Source: an uncultured bacterium
GTDB lineage: Bacteria; Oederibacteriota; Oederibacteriia; Oederibacteriales; Oederibacteriaceae
Assembly (NCBI GenBank): GCA_965112635.1
Contig: OZ218778.1
Span: 1,796,404-1,828,403, forward strand
Direction: 5' to 3'
DNA length: 32,000 nt
The notes under the pieces were generated by a model, which made no database searches, had not been told where the DNA came from, and was given only the letters and a program-made list of their open reading frames with translations. This document shows positions 7,165-32,000 of the stretch, piece after piece; the first letter of the stretch is position 1, and the number at the start of each line of letters is the position of its first letter. Position numbers and translations under genes: made by a program.

Positions 7165-7357
7165 ATAAAAATTCCCTGCGGTGTTCGTGATGAAATGACG
7201 AGTTTTGAGCCAACACCTTTTTGGAAGGGACCCGACCTCTAAAAGCAGTGTGCATACCTTGACTCAGGTTGAGGCAGCCTAATGCTTTTTCGGGGGTACC
7301 CACTTATTCATTAAGGTTCAAAAACCAAGTTTCACACGGCACAGGTGGGGAATTTTT
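7165..7357 (+). ncRNA. ssrS: Candidate 6S RNA (ends approximate)
   Basis: The 294-nt zapA-rarA spacer has its own promoter. The 5' AAAAAUUCCCUGCGGUG (7167-) pairs with the 3' CACAGGUGGGGAAUUUUU (-7357) to form a long closing stem ending in a U-run. Internal helices include AAAAGCA/UGCUUUU, and CCUUGAC/GUUGAGG with a UCAG loop. A small GGUU-CAAA-AACC hairpin sits on the 3' side. Size is ~190 nt. The synteny zapA-ssrS-(5-formyl-THF cyclo-ligase) is as in E. coli. Confidence 0.55.
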
Positions 7358-7372
7358 ATTTTGGGGAAAGAC

Positions 7373-8740
7373 ATGGACCTTTTTGACAAGGAAGCCTTTA
7401 TAAACAAAAACCCAGCCCGAGAACTTATCCCATCCAAGGACGCCCCATTAGCGAAAAGAATCTGTCCGGTGGATTTGGCTGACCTAGTGGGACAACCCCA
7501 TTTGCTGGGGGAAGGCAAATTACTTCGCAGGCTTATCGAGTCAGACCGCCTCGTCTCCATCATCCTTTATGGACCTCCGGGCACAGGAAAGACCGCATTG
7601 TGTAACGTGATTGCGCACAGGACCGGCGCTTACGTAGAACGGCTCAACGCCACTTTGGCGGGTGTTGAGGAGGTGCGGAACATTATCAGGGCCGCCAAAG
7701 AGCGGGCCCAATACTCATCTCAAAGAACCATCCTGTTCGTCGATGAAATACACCGTTTTAATAAAGCCCAGCAGGACGCTTTTTTGCCTGATGTCGAAGG
7801 AGGCACTATTATTCTGCTGGGTTGCACGACCCAAAACCCATTTTTTTCGATCAACCCGGCCTTACTTTCGAGGTCTCAGATATTTGAGTTCAAACCACTG
7901 TCAGAGGGCGAGCTTAGATCCATCATTCAAAAAGCCTTAAGAGACAAAGAGAATGGGCTGGGAAATCTCAATATCAAGATCCAAGAGGAAGCGATACGGC
8001 ATTTGCTAACCGGAACAGAAGGGGACGCCAGACAATTGTTAAACGCCTTGGAGGTAGGTACCCTGACGACTGATCCTGACAAGGATGGACGGATTTATAT
8101 AACAGTGGCCGTGGCCGAGGAGTGCCTTCAGAAGAAAAGGGTGATCTATGACAGCAATGAGGACTCACATTACGACACCATCTCGGCCTTTATTAAAAGT
8201 TTGAGAGGTTCTGATCCGGACGCTGCCTTGTATTGGATGGCGAAGATGCTTTATGCGGGCGAGGATCCCCGTTTTATAGCCAGGCGCCTGGTCATTGCCG
8301 CTGCCGAAGATGTGGGGAATGCCGATCCAAGAGCCTTGCAGGTAGCGACCGCGGCTTTTCAGGCCCTGGAGTGGATAGGACTTCCGGAGGCCAGGATCCC
8401 GTTGGCCCAAGCTGTCACCTACATCGCCTGTGCCCCCAAAAGCAATGCGTCATGCGTGGGGATTGATAGGGCCTGGAAAGATGTTTCTGAAAAGCCCCTA
8501 TTGTCGGTGCCCAATCATCTCAGGGATGCCCATTATAAAGGAGCGAAAAAATTGGGCAGAGGGGAGGGGTATATTTATCCCCATGAAGACCCCTTGGGTT
8601 ATGTTGAACAAAACTATTTGCCAGAGAAGAAAACGTATTATGTACCCAAAGAGGTCGGATATGAAAGTATCTTGAAAAAGAGATTAGAAGATATCAAGAA
8701 ATATACAAAATCGAAGAATAAACAGGAAGAAGTGAAATGA
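7373..8740 (+). CDS. rarA: Replication-associated recombination protein A (AAA+ ATPase RarA/MgsA); the track offers TTG at 7361
   Basis: Walker A GPPGTGKT, Walker [11 protein letters not shown], and the conserved C-terminal region [35 protein letters not shown] are present. The N-terminus MDLFD is typical. Confidence 0.9.
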
Positions 8741-9330
8741 CTAAAGAAAAGCTTAGACAAAAAATGCTGGCTCTTAGGTTAAATCAGATTCCTTTAACCA
8801 AGAAGCGCAAAAGCCTTCTTGTTTCCAAGAATTTATTCAGTCTTTCTTGTTACAGCGAGTCGCGGAATATCATGGTTTATTTTGATTTTAAGGGTGAAAT
8901 CAATACAGGTCTGATCATACAGGAAGCATTGAAAGAGGGTAAGAAAGTTCTTTTTCCAGATATAATCCCAAAAACAAGAAAACTAAATGTTTTTGAGTTG
9001 AGGAATTTTAAAAAAGGATTTAAAAAGGGCTATTTTGGCATTCCAGAACCTGTTCAAATGTCCAAAAGGGTTTTTCCGTATTCGAAGATAGATATTGTTT
9101 TAGTTCCCGGAATTGCTTTTGATTATAAGGGTTTCCGAATAGGTTTTGGAGGTGGTTATTACGACCGTTTTCTCAGATTATTACCCAAAAGAGCTATAAA
9201 AGTCGGGTTGGCTTATGACTGGCAATTGGTTCAAAGAGTTAGCCATGAAAAGCACGATATTTGTTTAGATTTATTAGTCACTAATGAGCAAATCGTTATT
9301 ATTAACAAGGCAATGCTAAAAAACCTTTAA
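8737..9330 (+). CDS. 5-formyltetrahydrofolate cyclo-ligase
   Basis: VPGIAFDYKGFRIGFGGGYYDRFL plus an N-terminal K..LR......R pattern. The ATGA overlap with the rarA stop suggests coupling. Confidence 0.85.
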   Translation: MTKEKLRQKMLALRLNQIPLTKKRKSLLVSKNLFSLSCYSESRNIMVYFDFKGEINTGLIIQEALKEGKKVLFPDIIPKTRKLNVFELRNFKKGFKKGYFGIPEPVQMSKRVFPYSKIDIVLVPGIAFDYKGFRIGFGGGYYDRFLRLLPKRAIKVGLAYDWQLVQRVSHEKHDICLDLLVTNEQIVIINKAMLKNL

Positions 9331-12991: not shown

Positions 12992-13360
12992 GTGATCGCC
13001 GTTAGAAGCAAGCCCGTCAATCAAGAATTGGTGACCACGGTCCTTAAAGCCACTGACGATAAGCAAGCCCATGATGTTGTGCTTTTAGATGTCAGAAAAT
13101 TGACCTATTTGACCGACTACCTGCTTATTTGCCATGGCCATGCCAGGACCCATATTCAAGCCATAGCCGATGAATTAAGGACCAAGCTCAAAGCGATGGG
13201 GCTGGGTTATGGGAGGATGGAGCGGGACAAGGGAGAAACCTGGATCCTGTTGGATTTTAACGAAATTATTTGCCATATTTTTTCAAAGGAAGCTAGGGAG
13301 TTCTATGCTCTGGAGAAGTTTTGGGATGAAGCTCATAAAATCAATGGTAGGATACATTAA
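12992..13360 (+). CDS. rsfS: Ribosomal silencing factor RsfS (Iojap family), GTG start
   Basis: DVVLLDVRKLTYLTDYLLICHG.......AIADEL and W.LLDFNEIICHIFSKEAREFYALEKFW are present. nadD-rsfS is a conserved gene pair. Confidence 0.9.
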   Translation: MIAVRSKPVNQELVTTVLKATDDKQAHDVVLLDVRKLTYLTDYLLICHGHARTHIQAIADELRTKLKAMGLGYGRMERDKGETWILLDFNEIICHIFSKEAREFYALEKFWDEAHKINGRIH

Positions 13361-14145
13361 TGAATTATGATTCTATTTTCAGGGGGTGGAGCATGAGGCA
13401 GATAAAGGTCGTATCCATATTTTTGTTGATGGCAGTCCTTTTAGGGGGGCTTGTCCCAGTATCCGTTTTTGGCAAGGATGAAGACACGAAGCGTGTAGCC
13501 ACAAATTTGTATGTCGTGGATATCCCTACTGCGAACACTTTATTAAGGGGCACTTATGATGCCTTTGCCAGGTTGTACGCTCCCGACGGCATTGTCGGTA
13601 GGTTTGTGATAGCCTTGAACGACCAGTTTCTTTTTGGTGGCGGTATCAACATGGAAAATATCATTGGTTCGGGGGATGTCCAGGCCCAAACTCCGCGTTT
13701 TATAGCTAAATGGAGAATTATTGCGGAGGATAAAAATATCCCTGCCTGCGCCATAGGTTATGATGGGTTGGGTTATGGTGACTATAATTCTGATTCTGGG
13801 GTTTGGCAGCACAAGCAAAAAGGTTTTTATGGCGCAGTGACCAAAGAGTTCAGTAGTTTTGGAATCTTCCAATTGACGTGTGGAATGAGCAGGGTGGATA
13901 GTCGTGTTTATGACCCCCAGCGGGATATCACGGCATTTGCGGGTCTGGCTGCGGCTATTATCAAAGAAGTAGCTCTAAATGTGGAATATGATGATTGGTT
14001 TAATACTCAGGGCGGAGAATTTAATGTCGGGCTTGGTTATAATTTTGACCCTGCCATGAAGCTGGAATTTGATCTCGAGGATATCGGAAGAGCCGGGGAT
14101 TCCCTGGAGCGCACTTTAAAGATCGAATATTGCAATTACATTTAG
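13360..14145 (+). CDS. Exported beta-rich hypothetical protein (the signal peptide begins at M12, so ATG 13393 is an alternative start)
   Basis: MRQIKVVSIFLLMAVLLGGLVPVSVFG is a classical signal peptide. The remainder is rich in alternating aromatic/Gly segments. No family was recognised. Confidence 0.55.
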   Translation: MNYDSIFRGWSMRQIKVVSIFLLMAVLLGGLVPVSVFGKDEDTKRVATNLYVVDIPTANTLLRGTYDAFARLYAPDGIVGRFVIALNDQFLFGGGINMENIIGSGDVQAQTPRFIAKWRIIAEDKNIPACAIGYDGLGYGDYNSDSGVWQHKQKGFYGAVTKEFSSFGIFQLTCGMSRVDSRVYDPQRDITAFAGLAAAIIKEVALNVEYDDWFNTQGGEFNVGLGYNFDPAMKLEFDLEDIGRAGDSLERTLKIEYCNYI

Positions 14146-14332: not shown

Positions 14333-14692
14333 GTGAAGGGCGTGAAAAAAGCTGATGAAATCAAAAGACCTCTGAGTTTTGCGACAGGCGAAAAACGAGA
14401 GGCCTTTAGTGCTTTGATCAGGCTTCTCCAAAATGGCGACTGTACTCCTGAAGAACTCACCAAGTATATACTTTCCCAAAAGCAATCTCAGGAACAATCC
14501 GAAGAAACAGAAATCCCCGCTTCCCGGACATTCCATTTTGGATCCGATTATAGGACTAAAGAGCGAGCCTTTACTCATTTTGAGCATATGCCCCGGATGG
14601 CCAAGCCAAAAGTTAATTATTTCAACTGGACGGTATTCTTCTTCTTTCTTTTCATGACCATCTTTATACTTCGCAATTTTATTTTTCGATGA
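14333..14692 (+). CDS. Small tail-anchored membrane protein, unknown function (GTG start)
   Basis: A soluble N-terminal ~95 aa is followed by one C-terminal TM (WTVFFFFLFMTIFILRNFIF). Its stop TGA (14690-14692) overlaps the SD GAGGA of the next gene. It competes with an antisense 181-aa ORF, which I reject. Confidence 0.4.
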   Translation: MKGVKKADEIKRPLSFATGEKREAFSALIRLLQNGDCTPEELTKYILSQKQSQEQSEETEIPASRTFHFGSDYRTKERAFTHFEHMPRMAKPKVNYFNWTVFFFFLFMTIFILRNFIFR

Positions 14693-14702
14693 GGATAAAA
14701 CA

Positions 14703-16367
14703 GTGAGCTTTATCAAAGATTGTGACAACTGGCTGCGCTTGGGAAAAATGCTTACAGGCTGGTTGTTGTTTGTGAGCATTTTCTTTATGACCAGCATCTA
14801 CGCTTTGGACTTAACCCATGGTGACCTGTTGGTCGGAAAGTTGCAATATGAAAGGGAATTAGAAAGAAGGATACAGTCCATATTGATCTCCACGGTTGGT
14901 CCTCAAAAGGCGAAAGTTTCGGTGACCCTGGAGGTCAACAGCGAAGTCGTCTCCAGCAAGGAGGAAACAATCCATTCCGAGACCACCAGCCAGACCATTG
15001 TATTGAGCAACGGCATCCAAGAGGAGAACTTTGACAATCCTGAGGCGGGGACGGGTGGTCCAGGCAAGGAAGGCAGCGCCAATCAGGCTAGCAGCAATGT
15101 CTTGGAAGAAACCCGGACCACCAAAGAAACCTTGTCGATGCCTTCCAATTTGATCAAAAAGCTGTCTATCTCTTTGTTGATCAGCGACAAGGTCCCTGAT
15201 GCTCTTATCGAAAAAGCCAAGACCATCATTATGGAAGCAGTCAGTTTTAATGCCGACAGGGGGGACCAGCTATCTTTACAAAAGGTCACCTTTATTTCCG
15301 GTGCCGCAGGGGAGATGGAGCAGATCCAGGACCAAAAACAGACAGCGGATTTCTGGCTTGCTTTAACCCGGTATGCCTTGAGCTTGATCTTGGGGGTCGC
15401 TTTCCTTTTGTTTTTGTTCAGTTTGTTAAATACTTTCCGTACCCTGAAACAGGCTGAGATCAATGTGTCCGCTCAGGCCATAGCCGCCAAGGCAGCCCCT
15501 GCCGAAGGCGAGGTCGCAGGACCGGCCGGGGCCACGGCGATCCCGGCTGCGGGATTTGCTGCCGTAGGTGTCCCCGGCACAATGCTTCCCGGGATGCCTA
15601 TGGGAATGCCTGGAACGATCACGGTTGGACCCCAGCGCTTCGCTTTCCTCCAGGAGAAGAATTCCAGGGCTCTTCTGCATTTGATCCAAAAAGAGCCGAT
15701 CCAAACTATTGCTTTAGTGCTTTCCTATATTACCCCAGAGCAGGCAGCCGGGATCTTGCAGTCCCTCCCAGGGGAGATCCAAAGCCAGGTCGCCTCTAGG
15801 ATCTCTACGATCAGTGAAATGTCACCGACGGAAGTGAACAGAATCGAGCAGGATATCAAAGAGAAGATCGATTATGTGGTGGGGGGCAGGGATTCCCTGG
15901 TCAATATCATCCAGAGCATGGGTCCCGATGGAATGAAGGCTATCATCGGCAATCTTGACAGGAGCAATCCAAAGCTGGCCGGTGAATTGAGGCCTTCACT
16001 ATTTACTTTCGATGATGTCCTCCTGTTGGATAGTTTTGCGATCCAGCAAGTTGTCAGGCAACTGAGCATTCCGGAACTGGCCATCGCTTTAAAAAATGCC
16101 AGCGAAGAGATAAAGAACAAGGTTTTTGGGGCCTTGGCTGAGGGTGCCGCCCAGTTGCTCAGGCAGGAACTGGAGTTGATGAGGCCGCTGCCCGCTCGGC
16201 GCTATATAGAAGCGCAGCGTAAATTTATTCAGGCGGTAAGGATACTTGAACAACAGGGCGTAATCTTTGTGCAGAGAGAAGAATCGACTCCTTCCTCAGT
16301 CGGCGGCAACGACCTGGGTGGTGGGCCTGGTTTAGGGCCCGATTCTCCTTTGGCGCCGATGACCTAG
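14703..16367 (+). CDS. FliF-like (YscJ/FliF ring-building, 2 TM) protein fused to FliG middle and C-terminal domains
   Basis: GTG lies 7 nt after GAGGA.
- TM1 is at ~14748-14807.
- Periplasmic region: YERELERRIQSIL..VGPQKAKVSVTLEV and KKLSISLLISDKVP...IIMEAVSFNADRGDQLSLQKVTF, the FliF/YscJ RBM pattern.
- TM2 is at 15351-15428.
- An Ala/Pro/Gly-rich linker runs over ~15470-15640.
- FliG_M-like region: KEPIQTIALVLSYITPEQAAGILQSLPGEIQSQVASRI...VVGGRDSLVNIIQSM (from 15690).
- FliG_C-like region: LFTFDDVLLLDSFAIQQVVRQLSIPELAIALKNASEEIKNKVFGALAEGAAQLLRQELELMRPLP..YIEAQRKFIQAVRILEQQGVI (15999-16270).
- The protein ends in a Gly/Pro-rich tail. Confidence 0.75.
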   Translation: MSFIKDCDNWLRLGKMLTGWLLFVSIFFMTSIYALDLTHGDLLVGKLQYERELERRIQSILISTVGPQKAKVSVTLEVNSEVVSSKEETIHSETTSQTIVLSNGIQEENFDNPEAGTGGPGKEGSANQASSNVLEETRTTKETLSMPSNLIKKLSISLLISDKVPDALIEKAKTIIMEAVSFNADRGDQLSLQKVTFISGAAGEMEQIQDQKQTADFWLALTRYALSLILGVAFLLFLFSLLNTFRTLKQAEINVSAQAIAAKAAPAEGEVAGPAGATAIPAAGFAAVGVPGTMLPGMPMGMPGTITVGPQRFAFLQEKNSRALLHLIQKEPIQTIALVLSYITPEQAAGILQSLPGEIQSQVASRISTISEMSPTEVNRIEQDIKEKIDYVVGGRDSLVNIIQSMGPDGMKAIIGNLDRSNPKLAGELRPSLFTFDDVLLLDSFAIQQVVRQLSIPELAIALKNASEEIKNKVFGALAEGAAQLLRQELELMRPLPARRYIEAQRKFIQAVRILEQQGVIFVQREESTPSSVGGNDLGGGPGLGPDSPLAPMT

Positions 16368-16421
16368 GAAGCCGCTGCGGCGTCAGATTGACACTAAAAC
16401 CAAGTTTGGAGCATATCAATA

Positions 16422-17186
16422 ATGGATAAGATGTCATTGTTTGGCTATGTCTTTGGTGTCGGTATATTCCTGCTGGGTATGCACCAGGGCGGGACGACCA
16501 GCCTTTTCTTGAATGAGCACGCGGTGGTCCTCGTGCTGGGGGGTACCTTTGCCGCTGTCATGATCAGTTCCAGTTTTGAACAGACGGTCGTCGCGTTTAA
16601 ATCCCTCAAAATATTGTTTTACCCCAAGAAGTATATGCCTGCTCAAGAAATCATCGATGTGATGGTAGGCTTGGCTGAGAAGGCCAGAAGGGATGGAGTG
16701 GGTTCTCTGCCCGAGGAGGCAAAAAAATATAATGAGCCCTTTCTTTCCAACTCGGTTCAGCTAGTGGCGGACGGTTTGCCTTCTGCAACGGTCCAGGAGA
16801 TCATTGAAATGGAGATCAATAATACCCGGGACCGCCATAAGGAGAACAGCAATTTCTACCGTGTGGCCGGTATCTACGGCCCCATGTTCGGTCTATTAGG
16901 AACTTTGATCGGCATCGTCCAGGTGCTGAGGAATATTGGGGGGGACCCGACCACAGTGGGTCCGGCCATGGCTGTTGCCATTACGACGGCTTTTTACGGG
17001 ATATTTCTGGCGAACTTTGTGTGTATGCCCATCGCCAATAAACTGAAATTAAGATCAGATGAAGAACTCGCTTTAAAAGAACTTACCATCGTTGGTCTTA
17101 TTGCCATCGAATCCGGAGACCTACCCTTGGTTGTGCGGAGAAAGATGGAGACTTTTCTGTCCTATTCCCAGAAAAAAAAGAAATAA
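16422..17186 (+). CDS. motA: MotA/PomA-family stator protein (4 TM)
   Basis: Two N-terminal TMs are followed by a ~95-aa cytoplasmic loop (AEKARRDGVGSLPEE). TM3 is YGPMFGLLGTLIGIVQVL and TM4 is AMAVAITTAFYGIFLANFVCMPIANKL, with the conserved prolines. Confidence 0.85.
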   Translation: MDKMSLFGYVFGVGIFLLGMHQGGTTSLFLNEHAVVLVLGGTFAAVMISSSFEQTVVAFKSLKILFYPKKYMPAQEIIDVMVGLAEKARRDGVGSLPEEAKKYNEPFLSNSVQLVADGLPSATVQEIIEMEINNTRDRHKENSNFYRVAGIYGPMFGLLGTLIGIVQVLRNIGGDPTTVGPAMAVAITTAFYGIFLANFVCMPIANKLKLRSDEELALKELTIVGLIAIESGDLPLVVRRKMETFLSYSQKKKK

Positions 17187-17256
17187 AAAGCCGTTCATTT
17201 GTTGACCGGGAAAGCGAAGCAATGCTTCATCCCTCGAAGGGATAAAGGAATCTGCC

Positions 17257-17952
17257 ATGGCCATCAGAAAAAGACCTCCTGAAGATATCGAATCCCTTAT
17301 GCATCGCGGGACGCAATGGATCATTGTTTATGGCGACCTGATGTCCTATTTGATGATATTTTTCCTTATCTTGTTCGCATTTGCCTCGGCCAAAAAAGGG
17401 AATTTCGTGGAATCCCTCAAGGGAATTGAAAAAACCTTCGGGCAAAAAGAGAAGAAGATGTCCCAGGAGGCGATGAAAGAGGTTCAGGTCCAATCCGAGA
17501 TACAAAGTTTTCTGGTCGCGCAAAACCTGACCCAAGTTGCCCGCGTGGTCATGACCGAACAAGATCTAAAAGTTATATTGACCAGCCCAGTGCTTTTTCC
17601 GTCCGGCTCGGCAGAGTTGCATCGCAAATCTTACGGTATTTTGCATACTATAGCCCAATCTATGAAAGATATGCCGAACTATGTCACGGTTGAGGGCTTC
17701 ACGGATAATGTCCCAATTCATTCAGCCAAATACAGTTCCAACTGGGAATTGTCCGCGGCGCGAGCCATGCAAGTTGTCAAATACTTTATTGAAGAGGAGA
17801 AAATCTCTCCCACTCAGATCTCCTTCACGGGGTATGGCGAGTACCAGCCGGAATATACCAATGACACCGAAGAACACCGGGGATTGAATAGAAGGATCGA
17901 GATTATCATCCACCGCATTTTGGTCCCCGTCACGGCAACAAAAAAATCGTGA
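17257..17952 (+). CDS. motB: MotB-family stator protein with an OmpA-like peptidoglycan-binding domain
   Basis: WIIVYGDLMSYLMIFFLILF carries the channel Asp (D27, codon 17335-17337). The C-terminus TVEGFTDNVPI....YSSNWELSAARA..V..Y........I.F.GYGEY.P......EEHRGLNRRIEIII is the OmpA/MotB motif. Confidence 0.85.
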   Translation: MAIRKRPPEDIESLMHRGTQWIIVYGDLMSYLMIFFLILFAFASAKKGNFVESLKGIEKTFGQKEKKMSQEAMKEVQVQSEIQSFLVAQNLTQVARVVMTEQDLKVILTSPVLFPSGSAELHRKSYGILHTIAQSMKDMPNYVTVEGFTDNVPIHSAKYSSNWELSAARAMQVVKYFIEEEKISPTQISFTGYGEYQPEYTNDTEEHRGLNRRIEIIIHRILVPVTATKKS

Positions 17953-17968
17953 GAATGAGGGCGGGATT

Positions 17969-19459
17969 TTGAGAATAATCATATGGGTCCTAGCCGCTTT
18001 GATCGTGGGGGGTGCCGGTCTTGCGGCGGCCCAGGAAGCCCAGATGCCCAGCGCCGACATCTTTGTCCACGGTAATCTGGGGCAGCAAAAGATCGGGAAT
18101 ACGATCGTCATCCAATGCGATGTCTTTAACACGGGGCCTGTGGCGCATTTTTTCCCGGTCTCCGTGAAATTAATGAACGCTGCCGATAACATCGTCCTGC
18201 CGTTCCAGTCCATTTATTTAAAACCCGGGCAGTTCGGCACCTTGACTTTCAATTATGCCTTAAAACCCGACAGCACGAGCCTCGGCCTTTATGCGGTGGA
18301 GGGCAGTGTTTGGCAGGTTCAGGGGCCTAAAAAACGCCTGTCCCTCAAAACCGATACCCAAATCTTTGAGGTGGTGTTGGGTGAAGTTATGAAAAGTGTC
18401 GTCCTGGAAAATTTAACGCTCAAGGGGAAGGTCGTGGGAGGCTCCACGGTGTCTTTGAAATGCCTGGTCCGCAACACCGGCAAGGTTTCCTATACCTTCC
18501 CCGTGAGCGTTAATTTGAGCGGGAGCGATGGGCCTTTTATCGCACCGGTCAAGACCGTGACCCTGGGGCCCAAAAAGAACCAGGGCCTTTCTTTTGATGT
18601 CAAAATACCCGCTGAAGGGATAGAGCCTAACGCGGTTTTGAGGGTCGTCGCCTGGGATAGGAAGGACGAGAAGGGAAAGTTGCTCATGCCTTACGCTGAC
18701 GCCGTCATATCCTTGGAGACAGCCAGCCAGACCTCGGTGGAGGCGTCTTTTGACGGCGAGATAGGGGACCAGCCCCGGGGCAAGACGTTTACTATTGCTT
18801 GCAAGATTAAAAATAACGGCGGCACCCGATTTGAGTTCCCCGTCAAGCTGGATATTTTAGATTCTTCTGATGAACTGGTCGCGACCCCTAAACCTAAAAA
18901 AGTCCTTTTAAAACCAGGGGAAACGAAAAGGATCGGCTTCAGCACCGCGATCAAAGAGGTGGGTGCTTACCAAGCTGTGGTGAGTGTTTGGAAAGAAAGA
19001 CGCGGACCCGACAGTTTTGTCGATAAGCTTACGGAGGAGGAACAGAATTTTTCGATTGCCAACGAAGCCACAGGAGGGGCTGAGCAGCAGGGGATGGACC
19101 TCGGAGTCGGCGAGACCCCTTCCGTGGCCCCGCCTGCGGTGAAATTGATGGACATCATGCTGGCAACATCCCAGGACCAAAAAACACCGGTCAAGGCCCA
19201 GGTGTCCGATAAATTGGGGGCGGTTTCCTGCCGCCTCTATTACCGCCTGAGCACCGAAACAAATCCTGATTTTGTGGAGATGAACCTTTTTTCTGGAGAT
19301 GCCAAGAGTGGAGTATGGGTGGGCGAGGTGGATCTCTCCAGACTTTCTGGAAAAATAATTTTTTACGCGGAAGCGGCCAATACAGAGTCCGTGCTAGGTC
19401 GATCCAAAGAATACAGTATTGCCAAGATGGCTACTCCGAAAAACAAACCCAATAAATGA
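17969..19459 (+). CDS. Exported protein with three CARDB-like Ig-fold repeats plus a distinct C-terminal domain (TTG start)
   Basis: Signal peptide is MRIIIWVLAALIVGGAGLAAAQEA. Three ~95-aa repeats (~18050-18330, ~18398-18670, ~18735-19010) share the pattern x-C-x-[VI]-x-N-x-G...F-x-F-P-V-x-[VL]...L-x-P-G/K....F. Confidence 0.6.
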   Translation: MRIIIWVLAALIVGGAGLAAAQEAQMPSADIFVHGNLGQQKIGNTIVIQCDVFNTGPVAHFFPVSVKLMNAADNIVLPFQSIYLKPGQFGTLTFNYALKPDSTSLGLYAVEGSVWQVQGPKKRLSLKTDTQIFEVVLGEVMKSVVLENLTLKGKVVGGSTVSLKCLVRNTGKVSYTFPVSVNLSGSDGPFIAPVKTVTLGPKKNQGLSFDVKIPAEGIEPNAVLRVVAWDRKDEKGKLLMPYADAVISLETASQTSVEASFDGEIGDQPRGKTFTIACKIKNNGGTRFEFPVKLDILDSSDELVATPKPKKVLLKPGETKRIGFSTAIKEVGAYQAVVSVWKERRGPDSFVDKLTEEEQNFSIANEATGGAEQQGMDLGVGETPSVAPPAVKLMDIMLATSQDQKTPVKAQVSDKLGAVSCRLYYRLSTETNPDFVEMNLFSGDAKSGVWVGEVDLSRLSGKIIFYAEAANTESVLGRSKEYSIAKMATPKNKPNK

Positions 19460-19499: not shown

Positions 19500-20177
19500 A
19501 TGAAGACAAGGTCAAAAAATATTTCAATGGAATTATCAATCAGCCTTTGTTTTCTTGTTTTGTTCTGCTTGTCCGCAGAGCTATGGGGCGCCCAGCCCAG
19601 CGCGACACCATTTTCCCCGCAGTCGGATAATGACTACGAACAAAATTACAACGAAGCGATGTCCTTTTACAATGCGGGATTGTTGGATAAGGCCAAGGCC
19701 AGCTTTCAAAAGGTGATCAAGATAAGACCAACGGCCGGAGCCTATCATTATCTGGGCATGATCAGCCAAAAAAAGAACCAGGTCAAAGACGCCATCTGGC
19801 AATGGAAGCAGGCTTTAAACTTGGAGCCGCGACTGGCTGTGGTCTGTTTTAATATCGGGTTGGCTTATGGTTCGTTGAAGCAAGTGGACGAACAGATTAA
19901 ATGGTATAAAAAGGCAGTGGCTTTAAATCCGAAATATTCAAAAGCATGGAACAATCTCGGTTCAGTGTATCTTGAGAAGAAGAGGACCACCGATGCATTA
20001 AATGCCTTTAGGACCTCGTTGAAAACCAATCCCCATTATGCTGTGGCCGCGGAGAATCTGGCCCTGGTCTATGAAAAGATGGGTCGTCACATTGAAGCCA
20101 AGAAGGAATGGAAATACGCCGCTTCGATAGAGACGAGGCCTGAGTGGAAAAAGGTTTTGGCAGCCAGAGCCAAGTAA
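19500..20177 (+). CDS. Exported tetratricopeptide-repeat (TPR) protein
   Basis: An N-terminal hydrophobic signal (LSISLCFLVLFCLSAELWGA) is followed by 4-5 TPR units (e.g. AWNNLGSVYLEKKRTTDALNAFRTSLKTNPHYAVAAENLALVYEKMG). Confidence 0.8.
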   Translation: MKTRSKNISMELSISLCFLVLFCLSAELWGAQPSATPFSPQSDNDYEQNYNEAMSFYNAGLLDKAKASFQKVIKIRPTAGAYHYLGMISQKKNQVKDAIWQWKQALNLEPRLAVVCFNIGLAYGSLKQVDEQIKWYKKAVALNPKYSKAWNNLGSVYLEKKRTTDALNAFRTSLKTNPHYAVAAENLALVYEKMGRHIEAKKEWKYAASIETRPEWKKVLAARAK

Positions 20178-20280: not shown

Positions 20281-20429
20281 CCAAAAAAGTGAAGAAATCA
20301 AGGGAATTATCCTGGTTTATCCGCTAAAATTTCCTATAACAATTTATAAAAAATCGAAAAAGCCGGCCCAATGCGCGAGCTTGGGTGGGAAAACTATCCT
20401 CCTATAATTTAGGAACAAGGGGTATACCG

Positions 20430-21365
20430 GTGGCTGATATACATAAAGAAAAAGATATTCTTCTTTTACCCCTTCTCATTACTTTTCTTGCCCTGACTTG
20501 CCTCATCTTCATCCCTGTCCTCGTGTCCGCTGAAGGAAATACTGCCGCTCAATTTTTAAAGATCCCTATCTCAGCCCGTCCAGCCGCCATGACTGCTTTT
20601 GGAGCCGTCTCTGACGACGTGAACGCCTTGCTTTATAACCCGGCCGGCTTATCCCAATTGTCCCAAAACGAGTTCTCCCTCTCCTATGTTAAATATTTCA
20701 CCGACACAAACATGGCATTTTTGGGACTGGCTGTCCCGCTCGCGCACATCGGCACTTTTGGTCTTGGCGTCACATACCTGAGCGTCCTGAATATTGACGC
20801 CAGGGACGCGCAGGAGAACCAGGCCGGAAGTTTTGGGAGCACGGATTGGGCCGTCACTTTGTCCTACGCCAAGGAAAACCTATGGGGCAACCTGAATGCA
20901 GGGGCAAGCCTTAAGGTGGTGGGGGAGACTATCGATGCCACAAGCGCAAACGGGCTGGCCGGCGATGTGGGGGTCCTTTGGATCGGTAAAGAGCCGAGGG
21001 CTTCGATAGGACTGGAAGTGGAAAATGTCGGGACCGGCCTGCAATTCATCAATGTCAGTGATCCCTTACCCTTGGGAGTTGTTCTATCAGGTGCTTACTG
21101 GCCAGTGGAACAGATAGTCGTCGGTACGGATGTGGACATGTATGTGCTGGAGAACAAGACCTATGTGTCCCTGGGCGGGGAAGACTGGCTGACCAAAGAG
21201 TTCGCTCTCAGGCTTGGTTACAAGTTCGGGACCGATCTGGGCCCGCTTTCCGGTTTGACCGGTGGGATAGGGCTGGCCATGGCGGGTTACAGCGTGGACT
21301 ATGCCGCTGGAGATGCCGGAGACCTGGGCACACTGCACCGGGTTTCTTTGGGAATAAAATTTTGA
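20430..21365 (+). CDS. PorV/PorQ-like (FadL-like) outer-membrane beta-barrel protein (the track start 20385 lacks an SD; GTG 20430 follows AAGGGG by 7 nt)
   Basis: Signal peptide is ...LLLPLLITFLALTCLIFIPVLVSA. The mature N-terminus AAQFLKIPISARPAAMTAFGAVSDDVNALLYNPAGLS matches the (P)FL-x-I-x-x-x-A-R-x-x-G/A-M-G...D...NPA motif I associate with the PorV/PorQ family. Alternating beta-strand segments continue to the C-terminal LHRVSLGIKF. Confidence 0.6.
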   Translation: MADIHKEKDILLLPLLITFLALTCLIFIPVLVSAEGNTAAQFLKIPISARPAAMTAFGAVSDDVNALLYNPAGLSQLSQNEFSLSYVKYFTDTNMAFLGLAVPLAHIGTFGLGVTYLSVLNIDARDAQENQAGSFGSTDWAVTLSYAKENLWGNLNAGASLKVVGETIDATSANGLAGDVGVLWIGKEPRASIGLEVENVGTGLQFINVSDPLPLGVVLSGAYWPVEQIVVGTDVDMYVLENKTYVSLGGEDWLTKEFALRLGYKFGTDLGPLSGLTGGIGLAMAGYSVDYAAGDAGDLGTLHRVSLGIKF

Positions 21366-21378
21366 AAGGGCAGGCTGA

Positions 21379-24300
21379 ATGAAGCTGGAAGGCATGTTAA
21401 AAAAAATAGGGAAGGCGGTCGTCCTGGCTCTGGTCCTGGGCCTGGGGATGATGCCTTTGGCCTATGCCGGCACCCGCATCAAAACCGTGGAATTTTTCCT
21501 GGGCCAGTATGAGATGGGGCAGGTCAATCTTATCCCTGCCCTTGAGTTTGACACCCCGTCCAAAACCATCGCCCTTCCAGAATCCTCTATTGTTGTCCGT
21601 TCAGCCTGGGTGGACATGCATTTTGTCAGCCAGGATCAAACCAATTTTGAAGCCAATTTTACCGCTGTCACCTTGACGGCAGGCTCTGCGATAGGTTTTG
21701 CCAGCACCAGCAAATTCGCCGCGGCGACAGACAGCCATGATAATGCTTATCATGTGAGATATGACTTTACTTCGGCCCTGCAAACTTTGACCACCGGCCA
21801 ATGGAATACTGGTCAAAGTGTTCAGGCCAAGATCAAATTTTTTGCCGCTACCAATTTCCATGCGGTCAAGCTGTATATCACCTATGAGTATGATGATACT
21901 TCCGCCACCCAGCTAAAAACCGTCAGATTCCCCCTGGATTCTATGGTGGGAGATTTGACCGTAGCTGACCTTCCTTGTACCGTGATGATCCCTCCAGCGG
22001 AAAGAAGTTCCCCGGGATACAGCTTGAAAGACGCCTGGTTCGAAGTGCACGGGCAGATGGATTATATCTCCGGTGCCATGACCGTAACCGCCCAGATCTA
22101 CCAGAGCGGCACTCCCCAGGGGTCTCCTTCCCAGGGAGGCTGTATCCCTTTGATCACCGGGAACGCTAATTTTGAGTGGACTTATTTTTACGATAATACA
22201 GCCAACCTGGCTCTGGATGGCACAACCCAAAGCCTGCGTTTAACGGCCAAGATGGGCAGTTTCCTGCATCCGGGCGGAGAACTGGTGGTCACTTACCAGG
22301 CCACCAATGATGTTATGGGCGCCTTAAAGACCGTGGAAATACCCCTGGCCCAGGGAGTTCTGGCCAATCAAGGTCCTGCCACTTTTACAATTCTGAATTA
22401 TCTCCAGGATAGCGGGGCCAACATACAAAAAATGTGGGCCAGGGTCAGAGGCGTCTGCAATGTGAACACTTATTCGGCCATTACTATTACCGGTGTGGCC
22501 AATGGCACACCAACGGGTCAGTTTGCTTATGAAATGTTTAGTTCCGGCGGCGGTTCAGATACCATGAATGAATACGAACTCATTTATGAAATGACCCAGC
22601 CCTATGCCAACCCCATGACCGTGACCCTGACCGCTACCGGCGGCTCCTCGCCCAGCGCTGTCCTGCTGATAACCTATGGTTGGAATAAGAACCAGAATGG
22701 ACATGAGTTCAAGACGCACCGGCAGCTGATAGGACAGGAAACCAGCCCTTTCCTGTCCGGGACAGTGGGAAATGTGACCGTTTATGCCCCTGAAACTAAT
22801 ACCAAAACCAAACAGGCTGCTTACGCGGATTGGACCTATTTTGCCGATGCCAATTCTACCAACTGGTGGGTCAGCACTACCATATCCGCGGGTTCGGGTA
22901 TGGCCCCAGCTTATGCCGCATTAGACAACAGCTATAAACAGACAGAAGGGATCAACCCAGACCTGAGTAGTGCTGTTTCTGTTTTGAATGCTTCCAATGG
23001 TCCTTATAGTTTTAATAGGAGCGGCTTTGTCATCGGTATGATGGGCGGGGATATGATCGTGACTTATGATGTAGCTTTCCCCACTTCCACCCCAACAAGT
23101 ACGCCCCCGCCGTCAACGTCAACTCCCACTACTTCTCCGACCCGGACGGCTACGGTTACGCCAACTGGAACGGCAACAACAACACCTACATCCACCTCTA
23201 CTAGAACTGCCACTAATACGGTTACTCCAACTTCCACATCGACAACCACCGTTACACTGAGTCAAACAGCTTCGGTCACTCCCAGCCTGACAATCACTCC
23301 CACTGGAACCCAGACACTCACGCAGACCTATACCGCCGGTCCCAGCCAGACGGCTACAATGACCCCTACGAGCACAACCACGATGACGGTAACAGCAACC
23401 CCTTCAGCAACGTTGACTATGACTACCACAGTCACGCAGACAGCCACACCGAATGGCGGCGGGACGACGATGCTGGATGCGATGACTGGGTTCAGCCTAG
23501 GTAGCGACCCGTGCGGCTACTTTCCTTTGCCAAGTGGTTCCATTACTCTTTCTAAAAATTCCAGTAACTATTACGATTGTTGCAATTCTTTACAAATATC
23601 CAACCTTACAAGCACTGGTACTATGGTGCAGATAAAAGTTGAAGATATCACAGGTTCTCCCCAGGATTGGTCCTGTTATTCATCCGTGTCTTTTTGGATA
23701 ATGGCAACTACTTCCGGGGTGCAATATCGGATTGGTTTAAGAGACAACTCCAGTAACTGGACTTGGTCAAGCACCAGTCCGCTTACTTGTCCAACCAGCT
23801 GGACGCAAGTAACCGTCCAGTTGCAAATGTTGGGAAATCCTACCGGATACGACGGATTTAAAAGCGGTTACCTAGGCCCTAATGACTTTAGCCAACTAAC
23901 TTGCGTGGAAATCGAATGTGATACGGCCAATGCGACCATACTAATGAATGACCTGGCGTTAGAAGGTAGTCCCTGCACACCTTCTCCCACGCCGTCTGGG
24001 TCGACCTATACTTATTCCTATACCTATACTTACACAACACCGCCGACCAACACCAATACCAATACTCCCACGCCTAGCAGCGCCACCTTGTACCTGTTGA
24101 ATACGACAACGGGTGATTCCAGTTTGTGGTATATGGACAAAACCAACCCGTCGCCCTCCACGGATACCACCACAATTCTTTCCACGGGGACCACGGCGGC
24201 TGGTAACTATTTCCTCGTTGAGCCTGGTGTGGCCAATTCCACCTCTTCAGGCACTGTTCTTCCCACTACTTTCAGCCAGATGGGCTGGAGAAGTCCAAAT

Positions 24301-32000: not shown

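What the first reader, a model, noticed from the sequence alone, without database searches (positions are those of the whole stretch)
21379..32000. Giant open reading frame missing from the ORF track: a >3,540-aa secreted modular protein
Seen: frame 1 is open from ATG 21379 to the end of the window, checked codon by codon. It starts with a typical signal peptide ending AYA.

Architecture, by eye:
- four novel N-terminal modules
- a T/P/S linker
- CBM-like and ConA/LamG-like modules separated by T/P linkers
- a PPC-like region (QDVYQF)
- five CarboxypepD_reg-like modules
- an Ig-like domain
- a duplicated TIG-type pair
- a ~560-aa (Thr-X)n tract
- two FN3 domains and a further CarboxypepD_reg-like module

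All long minus-strand ORFs in this span are antisense shadows. Inference: this is a surface adhesin, fibril or S-layer-like protein with probable glycan-binding modules. Its size and position make it the likely output or cargo of the upstream machinery.
Basis: partly seen in the sequence, partly recalled or inferred. Interest (0 to 1): 0.75.

Follow-up and report, generated by a model that had tools for sequence, protein, structure and literature searches.

The report
Giant surface adhesin beside PorV-like barrel
This is an intact gene for a 3,740-residue secreted surface protein, probably from an Elusimicrobiota bacterium; it lies directly after an outer-membrane barrel of the kind that anchors such proteins in gliding bacteria, and in the same gene cluster as a stripped-down flagellar-type rotary motor, hinting at an undescribed motor-driven surface machine.

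Summary
The ORF is real. Frame 1 is open for all 3,540 codons, and gene callers on the source contig give 3,740 aa in total. Two independent assemblies are identical to the window, and in-frame codon usage matches the neighbouring genes. The ORF track missed it only because the gene runs off the window.

The protein has a Sec signal peptide and no enzyme domain. From N to C it has jelly-roll modules (three verified, no Pfam family), weakly CBM-like modules, Ig-like domains, a 571-aa alternating-Thr tract, then FN3-FN3-CarboxypepD_reg.

A PorV/PorQ-family barrel gene ends 13 nt upstream. In six of six related loci, the large protein next to such a barrel ends in a T9SS-type C-terminal sorting domain. 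The giant's last 200 aa lie outside the window, so this defining feature could not be checked.

Further upstream lies a FliF-FliG fusion with MotA and MotB. A second lineage (27-29% identity) has the same motor flanked by PorV-like barrels and CTD cargo.

Best reading: a CTD-anchored adhesin paired with its cognate barrel (about 0.7 likely), possibly motor-driven (about 0.35-0.4). The motor link rests on synteny alone.

The parts
21379..32000 (+). Giant ORF, residues 1-3540 of a 3,740-aa product; the last ~200 codons lie beyond the window
   Evidence: No stop in 3,540 codons. Called as 3,740 aa on the source contig. Identical in two assemblies and shows in-frame codon bias.
21379..21468 (+). 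Sec-type signal peptide (aa 1-30, cleavage after AYA)
   Evidence: Read directly from the sequence. There is no Cys, so it is not a lipoprotein. No predictor was run.
21469..22701 (+). Three homologous jelly-roll beta-sandwich modules N1-N3 (aa 31-441), joined by the motif ...ITYEYDDTSxTQxKTV...
   Evidence: hhalign probability 95-98% between modules. AF2 model is all-beta and hits tandem jelly-roll folds. No Pfam, NCBIfam or PHROG family. 22 distant homologues were found, and the related ~635-aa family has 1,082 cluster representatives.
22702..23073 (+). Putative fourth N-module N4 (aa 442-565)
   Evidence: Shares only the boundary motifs (KTH......IVTYDV). hhalign probability below 4%. Not modelled by AF2 (pLDDT about 25).
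23074..23460 (+). Thr/Pro/Ser linker (aa 566-694)
   Evidence: T+P+S fraction of 60% or more in sliding windows.
23461..23973 (+). CBM-like module M2 (aa 695-865)
   Evidence: Pfam CBM_11 19.5 bits and CBM_4_9 18.6 bits, both below cutoff. Shares the VSFWI motif with M4. AF2 model unusable.
24076..24678 (+). Module M3 (aa 900-1100), unassigned
   Evidence: No significant family or PDB match.
24706..25278 (+). CBM-like module M4 (aa 1110-1300)
   Evidence: Pfam CBM_11 21.8 bits (cutoff 27), E 2e-4.
25306..25863 (+).
   Evidence: No family hit. Best PDB sequence match is a CBM32 at E 0.04, not significant.
25966..26478 (+).
   Evidence: No family hit. The label is unverified.
26473..27900 (+). 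Five ~100-aa beta-sandwich modules (aa 1699-2174), CarboxypepD_reg-like by eye
   Evidence: Only module 3 (fn3_3 19.7 bits, CarboxypepD_reg 16 bits) and module 5 (13 bits) give weak hits.
27886..28275 (+). Ig-like module (aa 2170-2299)
   Evidence: Pfam Big_13 21.7 bits (cutoff 27), E 2.9e-4.
28261..29475 (+). Four TIG/E-set-like domains arranged as a duplicated pair (aa 2295-2699)
   Evidence: Internal duplication at 46-55% identity. Alignment A4. TIG E 0.054. Repeat profile hits CGTase domain D at E 0.03.
29461..31173 (+). 571-aa alternating (Thr-X)n tract (aa 2695-3265) with 384-nt and 150-nt tandem DNA repeats
   Evidence: Composition. TRF repeats. The short-read Logan assembly breaks here, at aa 2768.
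31162..31398 (+). FN3 domain 1 (aa 3262-3340)
   Evidence: Pfam fn3 29.4 bits, above the cutoff of 25.
31450..31731 (+). FN3 domain 2 (aa 3358-3451)
   Evidence: Aligns to the FN3 domains of CTD cargo proteins at the D-type motor loci, 29-36% identity, E 1e-5 to 9e-9.
31750..31989 (+). CarboxypepD_reg-like domain (aa 3458-3537)
   Evidence: Pfam PF13620 31.9 bits against a cutoff of 32.3, E 1.7e-7.
20385..21365 (+). PorV/PorQ-family outer-membrane barrel (326 aa from GTG; gene callers start at 20430, giving 311 aa)
   Evidence: NCBIfam NF033709 157 bits (cutoff 90). Named homologues are almost all Elusimicrobiota.
19500..20177 (+). TPR protein with a signal sequence
   Evidence: Multiple TPR families, E down to 1e-25. 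PorV-TPR fusion proteins exist in relatives.
17969..19459 (+). Secreted protein with Ig/CARDB-like repeats (496 aa)
   Evidence: Weak CARDB, HYDIN-Ig and choice_anch_D hits. Role unknown.
17257..17952 (+). MotB (plug plus OmpA-like peptidoglycan-binding domain)
   Evidence: Pfam MotB_plug 39.9 bits and OmpA 74.6 bits. The channel Asp is present in YGDLMSYLMIFF (sequence, compared from memory with E. coli MotB D32).
16422..17186 (+). MotA, flagellar-type stator subunit
   Evidence: Pfam MotA_ExbB 94 bits. NCBIfam PomA, MotA and MotP 175-184 bits, against TolQ 23 and ExbB 17.
14703..16367 (+). FliF(C-terminal ring domain)-TM-FliG_M-FliG_C fusion, a minimal rotor
   Evidence: Pfam YscJ_FliF_C 44 bits, FliG_M 73 bits, FliG_C 101 bits. 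Only three other fusion clusters were found among 5.8e9 proteins, plus 15 further distinct D-type loci.

Best explanation
SHOWN. The span encodes an intact 3,740-residue protein with a Sec signal peptide. It is all-beta, very rich in Thr, Ser, Asn and Gly, and has no catalytic domain.

INFERRED, about 0.7 likely. It is the cognate cargo of the PorV/PorQ-family outer-membrane barrel encoded 13 nt upstream. After Sec export, a T9SS-type C-terminal domain in the unseen last ~200 residues would bind that FadL-family barrel. This would hold the C-terminus at the outer membrane, as SprF holds SprB in Flavobacterium.

On that model the parts would be arranged as follows:
- The FN3-FN3-CarboxypepD_reg region lies nearest the membrane.
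- The 571-residue alternating-Thr tract and the Ig-like, TIG-like and CarboxypepD_reg-like modules form a long stalk.
- The CBM-like modules and the N-terminal jelly-roll modules sit at the distal tip as the binding end. Relatives of the jelly-roll modules occur in Patescibacteria surface proteins and in a large family that includes a member on a phage-like contig.

INFERRED, about 0.35-0.4 likely. The cluster's FliF-FliG fusion, MotA, MotB, Ig-repeat protein and TPR protein form a non-flagellar, ion-driven rotary motor. It would energise export of this adhesin across the outer membrane or its movement along it. That would be a functional analogue of the GldLM motor of T9SS and gliding.

The organism is probably a member of Elusimicrobiota, judged from homologue names only.
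For: The gene is real:
- Open frame, called as 3,740 aa.
- Identical in two assemblies, codon-usage r = 0.81 in frame.
- fn3 above Pfam's cutoff, in frame.

It is secreted and non-enzymatic:
- Signal peptide read from the sequence.
- Only binding-type or structural-type domain hits.
- No PDB enzyme relatives.

Barrel partner:
- NF033709 PorV/PorQ family, 157 bits against a cutoff of 90.
- 13-nt gap with no terminator-like site in it.

The pairing recurs. The closest PorV-like homologues lie next to large proteins of 818-3,693 aa in L008 (two proteins), L009, L010, L030 and L031.
- Their extreme C-termini are mutually homologous (36-54% identity).
- They are also homologous to tails that reach the curated T9SS CTD cutoffs: TIGR04131 35.4-35.7 bits against 35, and TIGR04183 25.8 against 23.
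- A profile built from six tails (four from L008-L010, two from D-type L012) hits the two independent test proteins at E 4.5e-17 and 3e-10, exactly at their C-termini.

Motor link:
- The genes run on one strand from 14703 to the giant, with gaps of 16-70 nt, except 207 nt before the barrel gene.
- A second lineage, 27-29% identical in FliFG, has CTD-FN3 cargo, then a PorV-TPR fusion, FliFG, MotA, MotB, MotB, and later a second CTD protein and a second PorV-like gene. Where the contigs reach far enough this order is the same across all 16 distinct D-type loci.
- The cargo FN3 domains there align to the giant's FN3 pair.
- TPR and PorV-like are separate adjacent genes in the window but fused in relatives.

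Literature:
- Free-living Elusimicrobiota mostly lack flagellar structural genes yet carry motAB and fliG homologues of 'unclear' role (bioRxiv 10.1101/2022.07.08.499144).
- SprB (669 kDa, type B CTD) is co-expressed with SprF and binds it.
- Type B substrates are often genetically linked to their shuttle (PMC12618676).
Against: - The defining CTD was not seen. It would lie beyond the window, and the tail profile finds nothing in the visible 3,540 residues.
- In all six comparison loci the cargo gene precedes the barrel gene. Here it follows it.
- No T9SS core gene (SprA/Sov, PorK, PorL, PorM, PorN, PorU) is in the window. T9SS is regarded as confined to Bacteroidota and the FCB group (PMC10994853, PMC12398890 abstracts).
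- The barrel reaches only the family-level model, not the PorV equivalog (55 bits against 250) or the PorQ equivalog (124 against 220).
- In L008, L009, L010, L030 and L031 the barrel-cargo pairs have no motor within 10 kb. The pair is therefore a free-standing module, and its adjacency to the motor could be coincidental.
- The motor association rests on only two independent lineages. All D-type loci are 72-84% identical to each other.
- A 207-nt gap separates the TPR and barrel genes, so there may be two transcription units.
- The adhesive or glycan-binding function is supported only by sub-threshold CBM hits.
Confidence: 0.55

Rival explanations
1. The giant protein is a CTD-type surface adhesin handled by its adjacent PorV-like barrel, but the FliFG-MotAB genes are a separate system. 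They might serve, for example, a type IV pilus-related, envelope-energising or otherwise unknown function. On this view the adjacency is a by-product of how abundant barrel-cargo modules are in these genomes.
For: - Five relatives' loci carry barrel-cargo pairs with no motor within 10 kb.
- PorV-like paralogues are frequent: two within 4 kb in L008, and two within 14 kb in L012.
- A 207-nt gap lies between the TPR and barrel genes.
- The preprint records motAB and fliG across free-living Elusimicrobiota without linking them to any secretion system.
Against: - The same association of motor, TPR, PorV-like barrel and CTD cargo, on both sides of the motor, appears in a lineage only 27-29% identical.
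- TPR and PorV-like are fused in that lineage and placed directly before FliFG.
- Chance adjacency in two independent lineages is unlikely. My rough estimate is below 1%, assuming about 20 such modules per 3-Mb genome. This is an inference, not a computed figure.
Confidence: 0.3
2. The protein is a secreted polysaccharide-binding scaffold, an S-layer-like coat or a fibril that reaches the surface by another route. The upstream barrel is then simply a FadL-type substrate channel unrelated to it.
For: - Weak CBM_11 and CBM_4_9 hits and PT-type linkers resemble cellulolytic scaffold proteins.
- PorV-family barrels belong to the FadL superfamily (Toluene_X and UPF0164 Pfam hits on homologues).
- No T9SS core genes are seen in the window.
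Against: - No SLH, cohesin, dockerin or S-layer family hit.
- CBM hits are below threshold, and the module could not be modelled.
- Six of six barrel-adjacent large proteins carry a CTD tail, which argues that the barrel is a protein partner rather than a lipid channel.
Confidence: 0.1
3. The long frame is an assembly artefact or a decaying pseudogene built from collapsed or expanded repeats.
For: - The Thr-X tract contains 384-nt and 150-nt tandem repeats at 75-85% identity.
- The short-read assembly breaks inside it at aa 2768.
- The exact repeat number has single-assembly support only.
Against: - There are no stops in 10.6 kb, while the other frames carry 62-270.
- The sequence is identical in two assemblies up to the repeat tract.
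- Codon bias holds in frame in every sub-region, including the tract (r = 0.55, against -0.36 and 0.03).
- The frame is maintained through the tract into FN3 and CarboxypepD_reg domains that score in frame.
Confidence: 0.03

Closest known systems
SprB with SprF of Flavobacterium johnsoniae (T9SS type-B CTD gliding adhesin and its PorP-like anchor)
   Same: - A giant (669 kDa) repetitive, Sec-dependent surface adhesin is encoded next to, and co-expressed with, a cognate 14-stranded FadL-family barrel. The barrel binds its C-terminal region and holds it on the surface.
- The pair is coupled to an ion-driven rotary motor (PMC9143113).
- Here a giant secreted protein lies 13 nt from a PorV/PorQ-family barrel, in a cluster with a rotor and stator.
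   Different: - No SprB-repeat family hit.
- The barrel matches the PorV/PorQ model rather than PorP/SprF.
- The CTD was not observed.
- The motor is FliG/MotAB type rather than GldLM.
- No GldK, GldN, GldJ or SprA in the window.
- The phylum is probably Elusimicrobiota, where T9SS has not been described.
T9SS type-A cargo with the PorV shuttle (Porphyromonas, Flavobacterium)
   Same: - Sec signal peptide.
- PorV-family barrel partner.
- Relatives' partner proteins end in Por_Secre_tail/FlgD-Ig-like tails.
   Different: - In Bacteroidota one PorV serves many unlinked type-A cargos. Here, and in relatives, each barrel is paired with an adjacent large protein, which is the type-B style of organisation.
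- No PorU or PorZ attachment complex, and no translocon, is seen.
Bacterial flagellar rotor and stator (FliF MS-ring, FliG, MotA/MotB)
   Same: - FliG_M and FliG_C domains, a FliF C-terminal ring-domain match, a flagellar-type MotA, and a MotB with plug and peptidoglycan-binding domain.
   Different: - FliF and FliG are fused in one 554-aa polypeptide.
- FliG_N matches only weakly (28.4 bits, at residues that overlap the FliG_M hit). No match to the N-terminal FliF family (YscJ_FliF) was found.
- No FliM, FliN, export gate, rod, hook or filament genes are nearby.
- The neighbours are instead a TPR protein, a PorV-like barrel and a giant adhesin.
- Most free-living Elusimicrobiota are reported to lack flagellar structural genes.
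Giant modular adhesins in general (for example RTX adhesins such as LapA, and Bap- or Big-repeat proteins)
   Same: Multi-thousand-residue tandem beta-sandwich architecture with low-complexity spacers and putative ligand-binding end modules.
   Different: - RTX adhesins have no Sec signal peptide and leave by T1SS through C-terminal RTX repeats. This protein has an N-terminal signal peptide, and no RTX, Bap or cadherin-type family hit was found.

Membership tests
T9SS cargo (type A or type B CTD proteins) | N-terminal Sec signal peptide | tested here: met
   K-rich n-region, hydrophobic core, AYA|G, read from the translation. No predictor was available.
T9SS cargo (type A or type B CTD proteins) | Conserved C-terminal sorting domain (TIGR04183 or TIGR04131) at the extreme C-terminus | not testable with these tools
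   - The product is 3,740 aa, and the window ends at residue 3,540.
- The CTD profile finds nothing in the visible part.
- Attempts to fetch the rest failed.
- Six of six analogous neighbours of PorV-like barrels do have the domain.
T9SS cargo (type A or type B CTD proteins) | Cognate FadL-family shuttle or anchor barrel (PorV or PorP/SprF-like), often encoded adjacently for type B | tested here: met
   NF033709 at 157 bits against a cutoff of 90, for the gene ending 13 nt upstream.
T9SS cargo (type A or type B CTD proteins) | T9SS core in the genome (SprA/Sov translocon, PorK/L/M/N or GldK/L/M/N) | not testable with these tools
   None is present in the 32-kb window. The rest of the 2.88-Mb genome could not be read.
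PorV (T9SS_OM_PorV equivalog) or PorQ (equivalog), for the upstream barrel | Score at or above the equivalog cutoff | tested here: not met
   PorV equivalog 55 bits against 250. PorQ equivalog 124 bits against 220. Only the family-level model passes.
SprB-type gliding adhesin | SprB repeat units and a type-B CTD | tested here: not met
   No SprB-repeat family among the Pfam or NCBIfam hits on any segment. The CTD is unseen. The resemblance is organisational only.
Fibronectin type III domain (PF00041) | Pfam gathering score | tested here: met
   29.4 bits against 25 at aa 3262-3340. The second copy is supported by BLAST to FN3 domains of D-type cargo.
CarboxypepD_reg (PF13620) | Pfam gathering score | tested here: inconclusive
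   The C-terminal copy scores 31.9 bits against 32.3, E 1.7e-7. The central five score 16 bits or less or do not hit.
Carbohydrate-binding modules CBM_11 and CBM_4_9 | Pfam gathering score, or a confident fold match | tested here: inconclusive
   18.6-21.8 bits against cutoffs of 25.9-27. AF2 model pLDDT 42, unusable. PDB profile hits to CBM30 at E 0.5.
Flagellar motor (for the upstream cluster) | Full rotor, switch and export set: FliF, FliG, FliM, FliN, the FlhA/FlhB/FliPQR export gate, rod and hook | tested here: not met
   - Only the FliF_C-FliG_MC fusion, MotA and MotB are present. The neighbours are not flagellar genes.
- The FliG equivalog scores 152 bits against 227.
- Genome-wide absence was not testable. 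The literature reports absence in most free-living Elusimicrobiota.
RTX/T1SS giant adhesins | No Sec signal peptide; C-terminal RTX nonapeptide repeats | tested here: not met
   A signal peptide is present. No RTX or HemolysinCabind hit on any segment. The last 200 aa are unseen.
S-layer proteins | SLH or another S-layer anchoring or lattice domain | tested here: not met
   No such family in the Pfam or NCBIfam scans of all segments.

The most novel reading that the evidence does not exclude
The cluster encodes an undescribed trans-envelope machine. A minimal flagellar-type rotor (a FliF ring domain fused to FliG) is turned by MotAB stators. Through periplasmic Ig-repeat and TPR proteins it drives a PorV/PorP-like outer-membrane barrel and its CTD-anchored giant adhesin. 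It would power either export of the adhesin or its movement along the surface. This would be an evolutionarily independent counterpart of the GldLM-driven T9SS and gliding apparatus. It would also explain the 'enigmatic' orphan fliG and motAB genes of non-flagellated Elusimicrobiota. The giant protein would be the working surface element, the equivalent of SprB.
Probability: 0.3. Interest if true: 0.9.

Novelty: new variant of a known kind. Interest (0 to 1): 0.62.

Why it matters
- Taken alone, the gene adds one more giant modular adhesin. It does carry an N-terminal jelly-roll module family that has no Pfam, NCBIfam or PHROG model, although related proteins fall into more than 1,000 sequence clusters.
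- The context matters more. It ties together three things not previously connected in the literature I could search: CTD-type cargo with cognate PorV-family barrels outside Bacteroidota, a natural FliF-FliG fusion with MotAB and no flagellum genes around it, and the unexplained orphan fliG and motAB genes of Elusimicrobiota.
- If the motor really acts on the barrel-adhesin pair, the flagellar rotor and stator have been used, or originated, in a non-flagellar surface machine. That bears on the evolution of the flagellar motor and on how T9SS-like systems are energised.
- The hypothesis can be tested directly by genome-wide co-occurrence analysis, complex prediction and cryo-electron tomography.

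Tried and rejected
- Whole-protein Pfam scan returned nothing, presumably because of compositional-bias filtering. Per-module scans were needed.
- Exact look-ups of the barrel and TPR proteins failed because my start codons differed from the gene callers'. The source contig was found through the FliF-FliG fusion instead.
- Attempts to read the missing C-terminus all failed:
  - The genome-contig scan with the last 281 aa found nothing.
  - The giant was never returned by the homology or profile searches.
  - An exact look-up of residues 1-2768, the Logan partial product, was not in the collection.
  - All anchor genes lie more than 10 kb from the end of the gene.
- PHROGs gave no hit for the N-modules or their ~635-aa relatives.
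- Pfam gave no hit for the neighbours of one such relative on a phage-like contig.
- PDB sequence searches of the central 2 kb of protein found nothing.
- AF2 of the CBM-like module with a two-sequence alignment gave pLDDT 42 and was not used for fold search.
- Foldseek hits for the N-terminal model have TM-scores of only 0.11-0.21. I use them for fold class only (tandem jelly rolls), not for function.
- I considered and rejected a classical autotransporter: 200 unseen residues are too few for a 12-stranded beta-domain with its linker.
- I rejected a T1SS RTX adhesin because a signal peptide is present.
- I rejected a pseudogene or misassembly on the evidence.
- L017 from the genome scan is an ordinary spirochaete FliG and was ignored.


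Full report

Yes. Translation of 21379-32000 in frame 1 gives 3,540 codons without a stop. The other five frames over the same span contain 62-270 stops.

The ATG follows an AAGGG Shine-Dalgarno-like motif 8 nt upstream. It lies 13 nt after the stop codon of the previous gene.

Relative synonymous codon usage in frame correlates with that of eleven upstream genes (r = 0.81). The shifted frames give -0.23 and 0.11. The same holds within every sub-region, including the repeat-rich Thr-X tract.

The source contig was located through an exact match of the upstream FliF-FliG fusion (P0023). The window is base-for-base identical to an ENA contig of 230,765 bp (L002) and to an independent Logan short-read contig (L003).

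Gene callers give the product as 3,740 aa, so the window lacks only the last ~200 residues. The short-read assembly stops at residue 2,768, inside the Thr-X repeats. That is the only stretch whose exact length rests on a single assembly.

The gene was 'missing from the ORF track' because the ORF lister omits frames that run off the source. The long minus-strand ORFs inside the span have no family matches. They lie in the antisense frame with the fewest stops, as expected of shadows.

**2. Architecture: what holds and what does not**

The whole protein gives no Pfam hit, so each module was scanned separately.

Firm:
- A Sec-type signal peptide (aa 1-30, read from the sequence).
- A T/P/S linker (aa 566-694) and a 571-aa alternating (Thr-X)n tract (aa 2695-3265). 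The tract contains 384-nt and 150-nt tandem DNA repeats.
- A duplicated pair of about 100-aa domains (aa 2292-2494 against 2493-2697, 46-55% identity).
- An FN3 domain above Pfam's cutoff (29.4 bits against 25).
- A second FN3, supported by homology.
- A C-terminal CarboxypepD_reg-like domain just under the cutoff (31.9 against 32.3).

Weak:
- CBM_11 and CBM_4_9 in two modules (18.6-21.8 bits against 25.9-27).
- Big_13 (21.7 against 27).
- TIG (E 0.054). A profile of the four repeats hits the E-set domain D of cyclodextrin glycosyltransferases at E 0.03.
- Two of the five central CarboxypepD_reg-like modules (16 and 13 bits).

Unsupported: the 'ConA/LamG-like' and 'PPC-like' labels. An AF2 model of a CBM-like module was unusable (pLDDT 42).

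No segment resembles an enzyme.

**3. The N-terminal modules**

Residues 31-441 form three modules that are homologous to one another (hhalign probability 95-98%). The proposed fourth module is not supported (probability below 4%).

The modules are joined by a strongly conserved junction motif...ITYEYDDTSxTQxKTV.... They have no Pfam, NCBIfam or PHROG family.

An AF2 model built on 22 homologues is all-beta (pTM 0.67). Module 1 is the most confident (most 10-residue blocks 63-92) and module 4 is not modelled.

Foldseek matches it to tandem jelly-roll proteins: PNGase F-type amidases, reelin repeats, PHM, BcsB, multi-jelly-roll viral capsid proteins, and phage tail or CBM/LamG-like proteins. 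The TM-scores are low, so this gives fold class only.

Relatives fall in two groups:
- Secreted 780-930-aa proteins, one of them labelled Patescibacteria.
- A large family of ~635-aa proteins without signal peptides. It has 1,082 cluster representatives. One member lies on a 122-kb phage-like contig.

I infer that the modules are cell-surface or particle-surface binding elements. This is an inference, not a test.

**4. The neighbour that matters**

The gene ending 13 nt upstream encodes a PorV/PorQ-family outer-membrane barrel (NF033709, 157 bits, cutoff 90). It does not reach the PorV or PorQ equivalog cutoffs.

Its named homologues are almost all from Elusimicrobiota (41-48% identity at best). 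That is my basis for the probable phylum.

I examined five loci around its closest homologues with usable contigs. Each PorV-like gene lies directly beside a large protein on the same strand:

| Locus | Adjacent large protein(s) |
|---|---|
| L008 | 1,598 aa and 818 aa |
| L009 | 1,277 aa |
| L010 | 1,639 aa |
| L030 | 3,693 aa |
| L031 | 936 aa |

The extreme C-termini of these proteins are homologous to each other (36-54% identity). They are also homologous to tails that reach the curated cutoffs for T9SS sorting domains: TIGR04131 at 35.4-35.7 bits against 35, and TIGR04183 at 25.8 against 23.

A profile built from six tails (four from L008-L010, two from D-type L012) hits the two proteins not used to build it at E 4.5e-17 and 3e-10, exactly at their C-termini.

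So 'a large protein ending in a T9SS-type CTD, next to a PorV-family barrel' is a recurrent module in these organisms, seen for six of six such proteins.

In Bacteroidota this is how type-B cargo is organised. [quoted passage not shown] For the window's protein the CTD itself could not be checked. The profile finds nothing in residues 1-3,540, and every route to the last 200 residues failed. In the comparison loci the cargo gene precedes the barrel gene, whereas here it follows.

**5. The upstream machinery**

On the same strand, between 14703 and 21365, lie these genes:

| Coordinates | Product |
|---|---|
| 14703-16367 | 554-aa fusion: TM, FliF C-terminal ring domain, TM, linker, FliG_M, FliG_C |
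| 16422-17186 | Flagellar-type MotA (PomA, MotA, MotP 175-184 bits; TolQ 23) |
| 17257-17952 | MotB with plug and OmpA-like domain |
| 17969-19459 | 496-aa secreted Ig/CARDB-like repeat protein |
| 19500-20177 | TPR protein |
| 20385-21365 | PorV/PorQ-family barrel |

No other flagellar gene is present. The genes further upstream are housekeeping genes.

The fusion is very rare. Only three other clusters were found among 5.8 billion protein clusters.

Scans with an alignment of the four fusions recovered one further lineage, which I call D-type. With the P0025 contig already seen, it is now known from 16 distinct full-length loci, 27-30% identical to the window's fusion and 72-84% identical to each other. 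The MAGs are labelled 'Clostridia bacterium' or 'bacterium'.

Their gene order does not vary wherever the contigs reach far enough:
1. FN3 protein with a type-B CTD
2. 842-aa PorV/PorP-like barrel fused to TPRs
3. FliFG
4. MotA
5. MotB
6. MotB
7. Histidine kinase
8. Response regulators, one with a GGDEF domain
9. 173-aa CTD protein
10. A second PorV-like barrel

The FN3 domains of that cargo align to the giant's FN3 pair (29-36% identity).

The same functional set therefore co-occurs in two lineages that have diverged to under 30% identity and have different gene orders. TPR and barrel are fused in one lineage and adjacent in the other, and other PorV-TPR fusions also exist.

Against a universal link, the five barrel-cargo loci examined in other relatives have no motor within 10 kb.

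A 2022 preprint notes that most free-living Elusimicrobiota lack flagellar structural genes yet carry motAB and fliG homologues of 'unclear' role (10.1101/2022.07.08.499144). I found no paper connecting FliG or MotAB with PorV or CTD proteins.

**6. Most likely mechanism**

Shown: a real gene for a Sec-exported, non-enzymatic, modular giant protein, encoded immediately after a PorV-family barrel and in a cluster with a minimal rotor and stator.

Inferred, about 0.7: the unseen C-terminus carries a T9SS-type CTD that binds the adjacent barrel. This would fix the C-terminus at the outer membrane. The arrangement would then be:
- FN3-FN3-CarboxypepD_reg lies proximal to the membrane.
- The Thr-X tract and the Ig-like modules form an extended stalk, possibly glycosylated.
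- The CBM-like and jelly-roll modules form the distal binding tip.

Inferred, about 0.35-0.4: the FliFG ring, turned by MotAB, transmits energy across the periplasm to the barrel-adhesin pair, for export or for surface movement. The Ig-repeat and TPR proteins are candidates for the transmission, though nothing tests this. This would be analogous to GldLM driving T9SS and SprB.

How the polypeptide crosses the outer membrane is unknown. No translocon was seen.

**7. Comparison, novelty and verdict**

The protein works like a SprB-type CTD adhesin with its cognate barrel. Membership of T9SS cargo cannot be claimed, for four reasons:
- The CTD is unseen.
- The T9SS core is unseen.
- The barrel passes only the family-level model.
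- There are no SprB repeats.

It is not an RTX/T1SS adhesin, since it has a signal peptide. It is not a classical autotransporter, since too little sequence remains. It is not an S-layer protein, since no such domain was found.

I rate it a new variant of a known kind: a giant CTD-type adhesin and barrel pair, with an uncharacterised N-terminal module family, embedded in a non-flagellar FliFG-MotAB cluster.

Interest is moderate to high (0.62), and it comes from the context rather than from the size of the ORF. The most novel reading not excluded is a flagellar-type motor driving a T9SS- or gliding-like surface machine. I give it a probability of about 0.3, and it would be of high interest if true.

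Noticed in passing
window 7170-7355 (+): 6S/SsrS RNA gene (Rfam RF00013, 92.7 bits, gathering score 46.4). It lies between zapA (6614-7066) and rarA/mgsA (7361-8740), with 5-formyltetrahydrofolate cyclo-ligase at 8737-9330. This is the classic zapA-ssrS-ygfA neighbourhood with rarA inserted.
   Followed up: partly
window 14703-17952 (+); related loci L004, L011-L016, L019-L027: A natural FliF(C-terminal ring domain)-FliG_MC fusion with MotA and MotB and no other flagellar genes nearby. It is extremely rare in the protein database. In a second lineage the cluster adds a second MotB, a histidine kinase, several response regulators (one with GGDEF), CTD proteins and PorV-like barrels, in a fixed order.
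   Followed up: yes
P0002, P0006-P0022, P0047-P0195; locus L006 10001-11902: A large uncharacterised family of ~635-aa proteins (1,082 cluster representatives at E <= 1e-3). They share the jelly-roll modules and the ITYEYDDTS junction motif, and have no signal peptide and no Pfam or PHROG hit. One member lies on a 122-kb phage-like contig next to a 1,681-aa protein and an Endonuclease_7 gene. It is probably a phage structural or receptor-binding protein.
   Followed up: partly
L011, L013-L016 (record titles): The MAGs carrying the D-type motor cluster are labelled 'Clostridia bacterium' in their records. Yet the loci encode PorV/PorP-like outer-membrane barrels and T9SS-type CTD proteins, which implies a diderm envelope. 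Either the label is unreliable or these are diderm relatives.
   Followed up: no
L030 1-9926 and 14184-21443: Another genome (GCA_043825615.1) has two giant proteins, 3,693 aa and more than 4,251 aa, with LTD, FG-GAP and fn3 domains. They flank a PorV-TPR fusion and a run of toxin-antitoxin genes (HEPN/NTP_transf_2, HicA, ParE). The first giant ends in the CTD-like tail.
   Followed up: partly
L010 5047-9966: A 1,639-aa ORF with a TTG start and a CTD-like tail is absent from the recorded gene calls of that contig. It sits directly upstream of a PorV-like gene, so this appears to be a missed gene call.
   Followed up: partly
window 20385/20430 and 17969/18005: Start-codon ambiguity. The barrel is 326 aa from GTG 20385 but was called as 311 aa. 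The Ig-repeat protein is 496 aa (NCBI) or 484 aa (ENA). This is why exact look-ups with my ORF coordinates failed.
   Followed up: yes
window 13360-14145 and 14333-14692 (+): Two proteins with no family match lie between rsfS and the motor genes: 261 aa with a signal sequence, possibly a small outer-membrane protein, and 119 aa. Whether they belong to the cluster is unknown.
   Followed up: no
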